From the NCBI GenBank assembly GCA_000004985.1, contig GG739460.1: a stretch of DNA of 1,276 nt; one strand, 5' to 3'. The DNA comes from Naegleria gruberi (lineage: Eukaryota). A program made the translations under genes and the position numbers. A model generated the notes under the pieces. That model was not told the DNA's origin and did not search any database. It saw only the letters and a program-made list of their open reading frames with translations. The stretch's first letter is position 1. Each line of letters starts with the position of its first letter. Of the stretch, positions 2 to 1,276 are shown in pieces.

Positions 2-1276
2 AAATGGCATCTCCATTGCTGTCCTTGATTGTGTAAGAGAGAGTGGCTTCCAATCCTTATAATCTTGAGAGGACCATTCAGAATAATCTAATTGAGAGAA
101 ACTGTGTGTAACCTTCATATCTAACTTCATATTTTCACCTTCTTTAAAGTCACAACGAGTAGATATATTTTTGGTTTCAAATGATGTACCCAAGTTAACT
201 TCAGAATTAAAGAACTTTTCACCATTTCTAATACTGATACTACTAGAGAAGTAACCAGCATTTGTTTGATCATTAATTAACATTTCCATAAGTGTTGCTT
301 CTTCAGTGTCTGGCTTGGCTACAGCAAATTCTATAGACACTCTCTTTTCCAACAATGTAAACTTTCTAGAGGTTGGAATTACACTCTTCACAACTTGGTT
401 AGGGTTGGTGGTACACTTGTCTTTGGTACCATTGTTAACAAAGCCGACACTAACCTTAATTGTAATCTCACCAGTCTTCTTAGAAATCATTGGAATGAAT
501 ACTGGCTTGACGTCAGGAGTAACAACACTACCGGTCTTTGGATCGACAGTTTCTTCTGTTGGAGAAGCAGTCTCACTTAAAGCACTGGACAAGAATGTCA
601 GTACACCACTCATACTCTTTTCTTCTTCTTGAATAACTGTAGTTGATGCAGTTGTAGTGGTTGTGCTATTTTGAGTGTTAGTGCCAAACTCAGCAGGAGT
701 AAACATAACATATGCATTAAGAGTTTTTGGGGAATAAACTTCTCCATTATCTGATGAGACTTGGACTGAAATAAATCCAATATTGGTCAAGTCATTCAAA
801 ACCATGTCAGCTGTAACGTAATCTTCAGAAACATATGTAGCATCAACAATCTTTGTAACAAGTATATCATTCACAAAATATTCATATTTAACCTTGACTT
901 GATAATTATCAAAGAATACACCATAAATACCAAGTTTTGTCTCGGAAAGCTTTTCAATCTTCTTTACAGAATTGTCGTAAAGTGTCATATCCACAGAGAT
1001 AGTAGTATCCAAGCCATCCAATCCCAAGTAAAAAGTGATTGGCTTCTTTTTGGAAATTGTGGTGGCATCTTTCAAATCTGAGGAGGTCATACAAACTTGG
1101 TAGTTCTTGCATAATGTGCTTTCAGATGGATTACTAATTGAGTAGGACACCTTTGAATTGAGTTTGGTAGAGAGTACAGATCCCTTTAGAATGAACGAAT
1201 CGAAAGTCATGCCAAATGAAGTACCAGTGTAAAGTGGTAAAACGTTTTTAGAAATCTTCAAAAGCTTTGGTCGGTA
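2..1276 (-). CDS. Internal fragment of a large protein-coding gene, open at both window edges. Product unknown: a hydrophilic, beta-strand-rich protein with a central Thr-rich linker.
   Basis: Manual reverse-complement translation gives 425 sense codons with no stop. The first codon is + 1276..1274 (tac, Y) and the last is + 4..2 (ttt, F); one leftover base sits at position 1. All 425 in-frame + strand triplets were checked and none is TTA, CTA or TCA. The fragment begins YRPKLLKISKNVLPLYTGTSFGMTFDSFILKGSVLSTKLNSKVSYSISNPSESTLCKNYQVCMTSSDLKD and ends FETKNISTRCDFKEGENMKLDMKVTHSFSQLDYSEWSSQDYKDWKPLSLTQSRTAMEMPF. Synonymous codon use is coherent throughout: Gln CAA 10 of 10, Pro CCA 12 of 15, Gly GGT 11 of 19, Lys AAG about 25 of 36. 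The other five frames are interrupted by stops; the longest listed + ORF is 108 aa. An open frame this long in AT-rich DNA is very unlikely by chance. Confidence 0.86.
638..682 (-). other. Thr/Ser-rich low-complexity linker inside the CDS (TNTQNSTTTTTASTT), followed C-terminally by an acidic EEEK motif. The EEE is encoded by a short (GAA)3 run, read as (TTC)3 at + 620..628.
   Basis: Minus-strand codons from + 682 down to + 638 read act aac act caa aat agc aca acc act aca act gca tca act aca. This is a run of ACN and TCN codons in an otherwise mixed-composition protein. The next codons are gtt att caa gaa gaa gaa aag (VIQEEEK). Confidence 0.6.

What the first reader, a model, noticed from the sequence alone, without database searches (positions are those of the whole stretch)
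2..1276. Window-spanning 425-codon open frame on the minus strand, absent from the ORF track
The supplied six-frame track lists only three short + strand ORFs, yet the minus strand is open across the entire window in one frame. I checked every in-frame triplet and found none that reverse-complements to a stop. Codon usage is consistent along the whole length. The window is therefore the interior of a single large gene (more than 425 aa, both ends outside the window), and the listed + ORFs are artefacts of the antisense strand. One caveat: the first in-frame Met on the minus strand is at + 1210..1208 (residue 23 of the fragment). From the frame alone I cannot exclude that the true start is there and the 22 upstream codons are an open leader. 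However, those 22 codons carry the same codon bias as the rest, so I favour the gene continuing past the window edge.
Basis: seen in the sequence. Interest (0 to 1): 0.55.

Follow-up and report, generated by a model that had tools for sequence, protein, structure and literature searches.

The report
Fragment of an orphan Naegleria gene
The window is a complete 1.3-kb unplaced scaffold of the amoeba Naegleria gruberi, filled edge to edge by the interior of one already-annotated gene of unknown function, probably the outer part of a membrane-anchored surface protein; it is a real gene but an ordinary finding.

Summary
The minus strand frame 2..1276 has 425 codons and no stop. The other five frames have 17-45 stops, and 2000 dinucleotide shuffles never gave more than 164 open codons. 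The frame was missing from the ORF track only because that tool omits ORFs that run off the sequence ends. The window is identical to a 1276-bp Naegleria gruberi contig. GenBank annotates it as 'predicted protein, partial' (XP_002668011.1, 366 aa), covering residues 23-388 of the frame. An exhaustive HMMER search of 1.84 billion representatives found one relative, P0002, a 269-aa metagenome fragment. P0002 aligns to residues 319-424 and continues into a transmembrane helix, a poly-Lys stretch and a short tail. Residues 389-425, beyond the GenBank model's end, match P0002 on their own (0 of 2000 shuffles), so the frame is coding to the left edge. The 22 codons before Met23 score as coding, and Met23 is not followed by a signal peptide. 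No Pfam, NCBIfam or PDB match exists, and the structure predictions failed. Best guess: the ectodomain of a lineage-restricted type I membrane glycoprotein. Low interest; the gene is already known.

The parts
2..1276 (-). Open reading frame of 425 codons, open at both ends; the interior of one protein-coding gene.
   Evidence: No stops. The shuffle maximum was 164 codons. Residues 23-388 are 100% identical to N. gruberi XP_002668011.1.
113..1210 (-). Extent of the public gene model (366 aa, 'predicted protein, partial'), covering residues 23-388 of the frame.
   Evidence: BLASTP gives 366/366 identities, query 23-388. On the coding strand the model ends at AAG followed by GTTACA. This suggests the predictor called a splice donor there, which is an inference.
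1211..1276 (-). The 22 codons upstream of the first Met; probably coding, with the gene continuing off the right edge.
   Evidence: Codon log-likelihood is +7.1 bits in frame against -15.8 and -7.4 in the shifted frames. GC is 36%. No signal-peptide-like segment follows Met23, and the maximum 19-residue hydropathy in the window is 1.03.
2..112 (-). Residues 389-425, outside the public model but coding.
   Evidence: On their own they align to P0002 residues 68-106 with score 58, against a shuffled mean of 24.4 +/- 4.3; 0 of 2000 shuffles reached it. Both other frames of this stretch contain stops.
5..322 (-). Domain shared with the environmental homologue P0002 (residues 319-424). In P0002 this region lies about 80 residues before a transmembrane anchor.
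   Evidence: phmmer E=3.2e-5 against 1.84 billion representatives. Pairwise BLASTP E=3e-14, 32% identity over 109 columns. There are 35 invariant columns, including MEM, YFSSS and H.FS..D.S.W.
503..691 (-). Ser/Thr/Pro-rich, poorly hydrophobic linker (about residues 196-258), including NSTTTTTASTTV and an acidic EEE patch. Probably a flexible, O-glycosylated, mucin-like spacer.
   Evidence: The S+T+P fraction is 0.44-0.52, with hydrophobic fraction 0.16-0.28, in most 25-aa windows here. Glycosylation is an inference.
692..1276 (-). N-terminal module of the fragment (residues 1-195), rich in alternating hydrophobic residues and beta-formers (e.g. YGVFFDNYQVKVKYEYFVNDILVTKIV). No detectable relative.
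   Evidence: Composition windows. No similarity to P0002 (score 45 against a shuffled mean of 38; 63 of 500 shuffles reached it). No Pfam hit.

Best explanation
The window is a whole 1276-bp unplaced scaffold of the Naegleria gruberi NEG-M genome assembly. It holds only the middle of one intron-free stretch of a protein-coding gene on the minus strand. The gene continues beyond both edges. It encodes a lineage-restricted, Ser/Thr- and Lys-rich, Arg-poor protein that is probably beta-rich. In the fragment, two globular modules are separated by a Thr/Ser/Pro-rich, mucin-like spacer. By analogy with its only relative, the missing C-terminal part is expected to hold about 80 more extracellular residues, a single transmembrane helix, a poly-Lys stop-transfer signal and a short cytoplasmic tail. 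The missing N-terminal part is expected to hold a signal peptide. The product would then be the ectodomain of a type I membrane (cell-surface) glycoprotein, most plausibly acting in surface contact such as adhesion, substrate sensing or prey sensing. Shown: the open frame, its coding nature, its identity to the annotated N. gruberi protein, and its homology to P0002 across the end of the public model. Inferred: the membrane topology, glycosylation, extracellular location and any role in adhesion or sensing.
For: The open frame is statistically far beyond chance. It is 100% identical to XP_002668011.1 on a 1276-bp contig. Window GC is 36% against 35% for the N. gruberi genome, whose assembly has 784 scaffolds (PMC6125883). 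The CpG odds ratio is 0.29 with a TG/CA excess of 1.28, a eukaryote-like signature. The single homologue P0002 (E 3.2e-5 library-wide, 3e-14 pairwise) aligns to residues 319-424. Residues 389-425 are significant alone. P0002 continues into GGLGFVVVLVIFAILLTVIICFF (19-residue hydropathy 3.43), followed by KKKKKRK, a 55-aa tail and a stop codon. The window itself has no hydrophobic segment (maximum 1.03) and no signal peptide after Met23. S+T make up 23.5% of residues, with a T-run spacer. There are three N-x-S/T sequons and four Cys.
Against: The topology rests on one homologue at 32% identity covering only a quarter of the fragment, and that homologue is itself a fragment of unknown organism. 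No signal peptide or transmembrane segment is seen in the window. Both AlphaFold runs failed (pLDDT 30 and 32.5), so no fold supports an extracellular domain type. No Pfam, NCBIfam or PDB similarity exists. There is no expression evidence. The gene has no detectable paralogue or orthologue in any other Naegleria proteome in the databases searched. That is unusual for a functional surface protein and leaves room for a contaminant or a very fast-evolving gene.
Confidence: 0.6

Rival explanations
1. The public model is right at the 5' end. Translation starts at Met23 (+ 1210..1208), and the 22 upstream codons are an untranslated leader that happens to be open. The protein would then lack a signal peptide and be soluble or intracellular.
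For: The GenBank/JGI model begins at this Met. At the stop density of the non-coding frames (about 4-10% of codons), 22 codons stay open by chance roughly 10-40% of the time.
Against: The leader scores +7.1 bits as coding in this frame and negative in both others, and its GC is no lower than that of the coding body. A gene predictor confined to a 1.3-kb contig will pick the first ATG by default. The homologue's membrane anchor implies a secretory-pathway protein, and Met23 is not followed by a signal peptide. The record is flagged 'partial'.
Confidence: 0.2
2. The scaffold is not Naegleria DNA. It would be a contaminant from another AT-rich eukaryote, or a virus, that entered the assembly as an orphan 1.3-kb contig.
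For: It is a tiny unplaced scaffold. The protein has no relative in any other genome, and its only homologue is environmental. ContScout lists the N. gruberi assembly as contaminated (PMC10831095).
Against: The contamination reported is bacterial (135 proteins). This sequence has a CpG odds ratio of 0.29. It has no match in 185,579 prokaryotic species genomes, phage records or IMG/VR. GC (36%) matches the N. gruberi genome (35%). From my own knowledge, the NEG-M strain sequenced is grown axenically.
Confidence: 0.12
3. The frame is a decaying or never-functional open frame, such as a pseudogene fragment, a repeat-derived ORF or a chance ORF, and not a working gene.
For: No known domain, no expression data, no close relatives, and failed structure prediction.
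Against: A 425-codon frame with no stop at 36% GC is 2.6 times the maximum seen in 2000 shuffles. Codon bias is frame-specific along the whole length. Protein-level conservation with P0002 at 32% identity implies purifying selection over a long divergence. There are no tandem or internal repeats.
Confidence: 0.05

Closest known systems
N. gruberi XP_002668011.1 / EFC35267.1, 'predicted protein, partial' (the database record for this very locus)
   Same: It is 100% identical over 366 residues, on the same strand and in the same frame. The contig length of 1276 bp equals the window.
   Different: The public model is shorter at both ends. It starts at Met23 and stops at residue 388 with no stop codon. 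Homology to P0002 shows that residues 389-424 are coding, and the 22 upstream codons look coding.
P0002, a JGI metagenome hypothetical protein (269 aa; sample 3300059473, 957-bp contig)
   Same: It is the only detectable homologue: 32% identity over about 106 residues, collinear, with conserved MEM, YFSSS and H.FS..D.S.W motifs.
   Different: It covers only the last quarter of the window fragment and is itself truncated at its N terminus. It supplies the C-terminal transmembrane anchor and tail that the window lacks. Its organism is unknown.
Generic single-pass type I membrane glycoproteins with mucin-like Ser/Thr-rich spacers (an architectural analogy only)
   Same: Ser/Thr-rich composition, a T-run spacer between globular modules, and, in the homologue, a transmembrane helix followed by a basic stop-transfer stretch and a short tail.
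   Different: No sequence or fold relationship to any named family was found. Pfam hits on P0002 (TraL, TMEM18, DAG1 and others, E 0.01-0.27) are all below their cut-offs and sit on the hydrophobic segment. Neither a signal peptide nor a transmembrane segment is seen in the window.

Membership tests
Protein-coding gene of Naegleria gruberi (annotated locus XP_002668011.1) | Sequence identity to the deposited protein and contig | tested here: met
   366/366 identities. The longest contig for that protein is 1276 bp, the same as the window.
Protein-coding gene of Naegleria gruberi (annotated locus XP_002668011.1) | Base composition consistent with the host genome | tested here: met
   Window GC is 36% against 35% for the genome. 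The CpG odds ratio is 0.29. No N. gruberi codon table was available for a direct codon-usage test.
Protein-coding gene of Naegleria gruberi (annotated locus XP_002668011.1) | Physical linkage to other Naegleria sequence | not testable with these tools
   The window is the whole scaffold, and no longer contig carrying the gene was on record.
Type I single-pass membrane protein | N-terminal signal peptide | not testable with these tools
   The N terminus lies outside the window. The sequence after Met23 is not signal-like, which argues that Met23 is not the start.
Type I single-pass membrane protein | A single C-terminal transmembrane helix followed by basic residues | tested here: inconclusive
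   It is absent from the window (maximum 19-residue hydropathy 1.03). It is present in homologue P0002 about 80 residues after the shared domain (hydropathy 3.43, then KKKKKRK). Its presence in this gene is an inference.
Any Pfam / NCBIfam / PDB family | A significant profile or sequence match | tested here: not met
   There were no hits at E<=1 to 10 for the whole fragment, either half, or the profile with P0002.

The most novel reading that the evidence does not exclude
The fragment and P0002 would be the first two sampled members of a previously unrecognised family of surface proteins restricted to heterolobosean or related protists. The family would have a new extracellular fold, evolve fast, and possibly act in prey or substrate recognition. 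It would be under-assembled in N. gruberi because it sits in a hard-to-assemble region.
Probability: 0.3. Interest if true: 0.3.

Novelty: already known. Interest (0 to 1): 0.12.

Why it matters
It matters little beyond housekeeping. The finding shows that the ORF track hides any frame running off both ends of a short contig. It also shows that the public model XP_002668011.1 is probably truncated at both ends: 37 C-terminal codons are shown to be coding, and 22 N-terminal codons are likely coding. The gene is a taxonomically orphan protein with one environmental relative. If it is a Naegleria surface protein, it would add to a poorly characterised surface repertoire. Nothing here opens a long-standing question or would surprise a specialist, since eukaryotic protist genomes are full of such 'predicted proteins'.

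Tried and rejected
1. Pfam, NCBIfam and PDB sequence and profile searches on the whole fragment, both halves, P0002 and the joint profile found nothing significant. One search failed because of my own frame error and was redone.
2. AlphaFold2 on the full fragment (single sequence) and on residues 230-425 aligned with P0002 gave mean pLDDT 30.3 and 32.5. These models are unusable, so no fold search was run.
3. I searched for more relatives with the word-indexed search using the fragment, the two-sequence profile and the P0002 ectodomain. I also ran exhaustive phmmer and scanned metagenome contigs twice, viral contigs twice, prokaryotic genomes and phage records. Only the self-hit and P0002 were found.
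4. The look-up of contigs encoding P0001 found nothing on record.
5. Internal repeats: self-BLASTP gave only the identity hit, and there are no tandem repeats. A repeated-domain architecture is rejected.
6. RNA genes: three Rfam matches fell well below gathering scores (E 0.12-0.61) and there are no tRNAs. These were rejected as chance.
7. The + strand ORFs as real genes: no family hits, and they lie antisense to the homology-supported frame. Rejected.
8. A literature search for the accessions found no papers. A general search for Naegleria orphan surface proteins found nothing specific.
9. Bacterial contamination, as reported for this assembly by ContScout, is rejected on CpG depletion and the lack of prokaryotic matches.

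Full report
**Observation.** The reverse complement of window 2..1276 translates into 425 codons with no stop. A six-frame count gives 0 stops in this frame, against 17, 18, 23, 44 and 45 in the others, whose longest open run is 120 codons. In 2000 dinucleotide-preserving shuffles of the window (36% GC), the longest open run in any frame averaged 80 codons and never exceeded 164. The frame is therefore far beyond chance. Third-position GC is 32% against 38% at positions 1 and 2, and synonymous choice is strongly biased (CAA 10: CAG 0; AAG 28: AAA 10; no ACG, GCG or CCG). A codon log-likelihood trained on codons 23-425 is positive in every 22-codon window of this frame (mean +12.3 bits, minimum +4.5). 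It is negative on average in both shifted frames (-13.4 and -17.2). The first in-frame Met is residue 23 at + 1210..1208, as stated.

**Why it was absent from the ORF track.** At the default 60-aa threshold the ORF lister returns exactly three + strand ORFs: 306..632, 395..580 and 899..1081. The tool's description states that ORFs running off either end of the source are not listed. The absence is a property of the tool and has no biological meaning.

**Identity.** The word-indexed search of 5.8 billion proteins returned one hit, P0001, 'predicted protein, partial [Naegleria gruberi]'. It is 366 aa and 100% identical, and its longest contig is 1276 bp, the window's length. Its accessions are EFC35267.1 / XP_002668011.1. 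The window is thus an entire small unplaced scaffold of the N. gruberi assembly, which has 784 scaffolds and a genome GC of 35% (PMC6125883). P0001 corresponds to residues 23-388 of the frame. The public model starts at the first Met and stops at + 113 without a stop codon, where the coding strand reads AAG|GTTACA. I infer that the predictor called a splice donor there.

**The only relative.** Exhaustive phmmer against 1.84 billion cluster representatives found just the self-hit and P0002 (E 3.2e-5).
- P0002 is a 269-aa 'hypothetical protein' from a 957-bp JGI metagenome contig (sample 3300059473). The gene begins at the contig edge and ends at a stop.
- Pairwise BLASTP gives E 3e-14 and 32% identity, with query residues 319-424 matching P0002 residues 2-107. 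Conserved motifs are MEM.I.D, YFSSS and H.FS..D.S.W.
- Residues 389-425, which lie outside the public model, align on their own to the collinear part of P0002. Their score is 58, against a shuffled mean of 24.4 +/- 4.3, and 0 of 2000 shuffles reached it. Both other frames of that stretch contain stops. The frame is therefore coding right to the left edge, and there is no intron at + 113.
- Residues 1-318 show no similarity to P0002.

**Anatomy.** The fragment is 23.5% Ser+Thr, 9% Lys and only 1.4% Arg, with four Cys, three N-x-S/T sequons, and pI about 5.2.
- Residues 1-195 are rich in hydrophobic and beta-forming residues.
- Residues ~196-258 form a Ser/Thr/Pro-rich, poorly hydrophobic spacer containing NSTTTTTASTTV and EEE.
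- Residues 259-425 form a second module, whose last ~106 residues are the P0002-like domain.
- No segment approaches transmembrane hydrophobicity (maximum 19-residue Kyte-Doolittle 1.03).
- The sequence after Met23 (MTFDSFILKGSVLSTKLNSK) has no signal-peptide core.
- There are no internal or tandem repeats.
- After the shared domain, P0002 continues through ~80 residues with Cys pairs. It then has GGLGFVVVLVIFAILLTVIICFF (hydropathy 3.43), KKKKKRK and a 55-residue acidic tail. This is the classical signature of a type I membrane anchor.

**The two ends.**
- Left edge: homology shows the gene continues. By analogy with P0002, about 160 or more codons are missing.
- Right edge: the 22 codons before Met23 score +7.1 bits in frame, against -15.8 and -7.4 out of frame, and their GC is 36%, the same as the rest. 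If the homologue's architecture applies, the lack of a signal peptide after Met23 also argues for an upstream start. Twenty-two codons can stay open by chance in roughly 10-40% of cases at the stop densities of the other frames.

**Function.**
- No Pfam, NCBIfam or PDB match was found for the fragment, its halves, P0002 or the joint profile.
- The sub-threshold Pfam hits on P0002 all sit on its hydrophobic segment.
- AlphaFold2 failed twice (pLDDT 30.3 and 32.5), so no fold search was justified.
- The two-sequence profile, the P0002 ectodomain alone, two metagenome scans, two viral scans, a prokaryotic genome scan and a phage tblastn found no further relatives.
- My best-supported explanation is that this is the interior ectodomain of a lineage-restricted type I membrane glycoprotein with a mucin-like spacer, plausibly a surface contact or sensing protein. 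The coding status and the homology are shown. The topology, glycosylation and role are inferred.

**Other features on both strands.** No tRNA was found. Only three Rfam matches appeared, far below gathering scores. There is no compositional break, and the + strand ORFs match no family.

**Origin.** ContScout lists the N. gruberi assembly as contaminated, with 135 proteins of bacterial origin (PMC10831095). This scaffold has a CpG odds ratio of 0.29 with a TG/CA excess and a GC matching the Naegleria genome. It has no prokaryotic, phage or viral match, so bacterial contamination is rejected. A foreign eukaryotic origin cannot be formally excluded for a 1.3-kb orphan scaffold.

**Verdict.** The gene is already in GenBank as a hypothetical partial protein, so this is not new. 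The modest additions are that the public model is probably truncated at both ends and that the protein probably belongs to a two-member, membrane-anchored orphan family. Interest is low.

Noticed in passing
window 2..112 and 113 (minus strand): The GenBank model XP_002668011.1 ends at an internal codon (residue 388) followed by GTTACA, as if a splice donor had been called. Yet the next 37 codons are conserved with P0002, so the public model appears to be mis-truncated.
   Followed up: yes
whole window: There is strong CpG depletion (odds ratio 0.29) with a TG/CA excess (1.28), and no ACG, GCG or CCG codons. This is compatible with cytosine methylation and deamination pressure in the source genome. 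I did not compare it with other Naegleria sequence.
   Followed up: partly
P0002 (JGI sample 3300059473, 957-bp contig), positions 835..957 minus strand: A second, convergent 40-residue gene fragment is called 24 bp downstream of the P0002 stop, which hints at a compact eukaryotic genome. The DNA was not retrievable, so the organism is unknown.
   Followed up: no
window 194..280 (-), 554..595 (+): There are weak C/D-box snoRNA-like Rfam matches (SNORD113 at 22 bits against gathering score 36; snoZ6 at 20 bits against 35). They lie inside coding sequence and are almost certainly chance.
   Followed up: partly
window 306..632 (+): A 108-codon antisense ORF lies opposite the most GC-rich part of the gene. 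It has no family match and is typical of the antisense frame of a coding region.
   Followed up: yes
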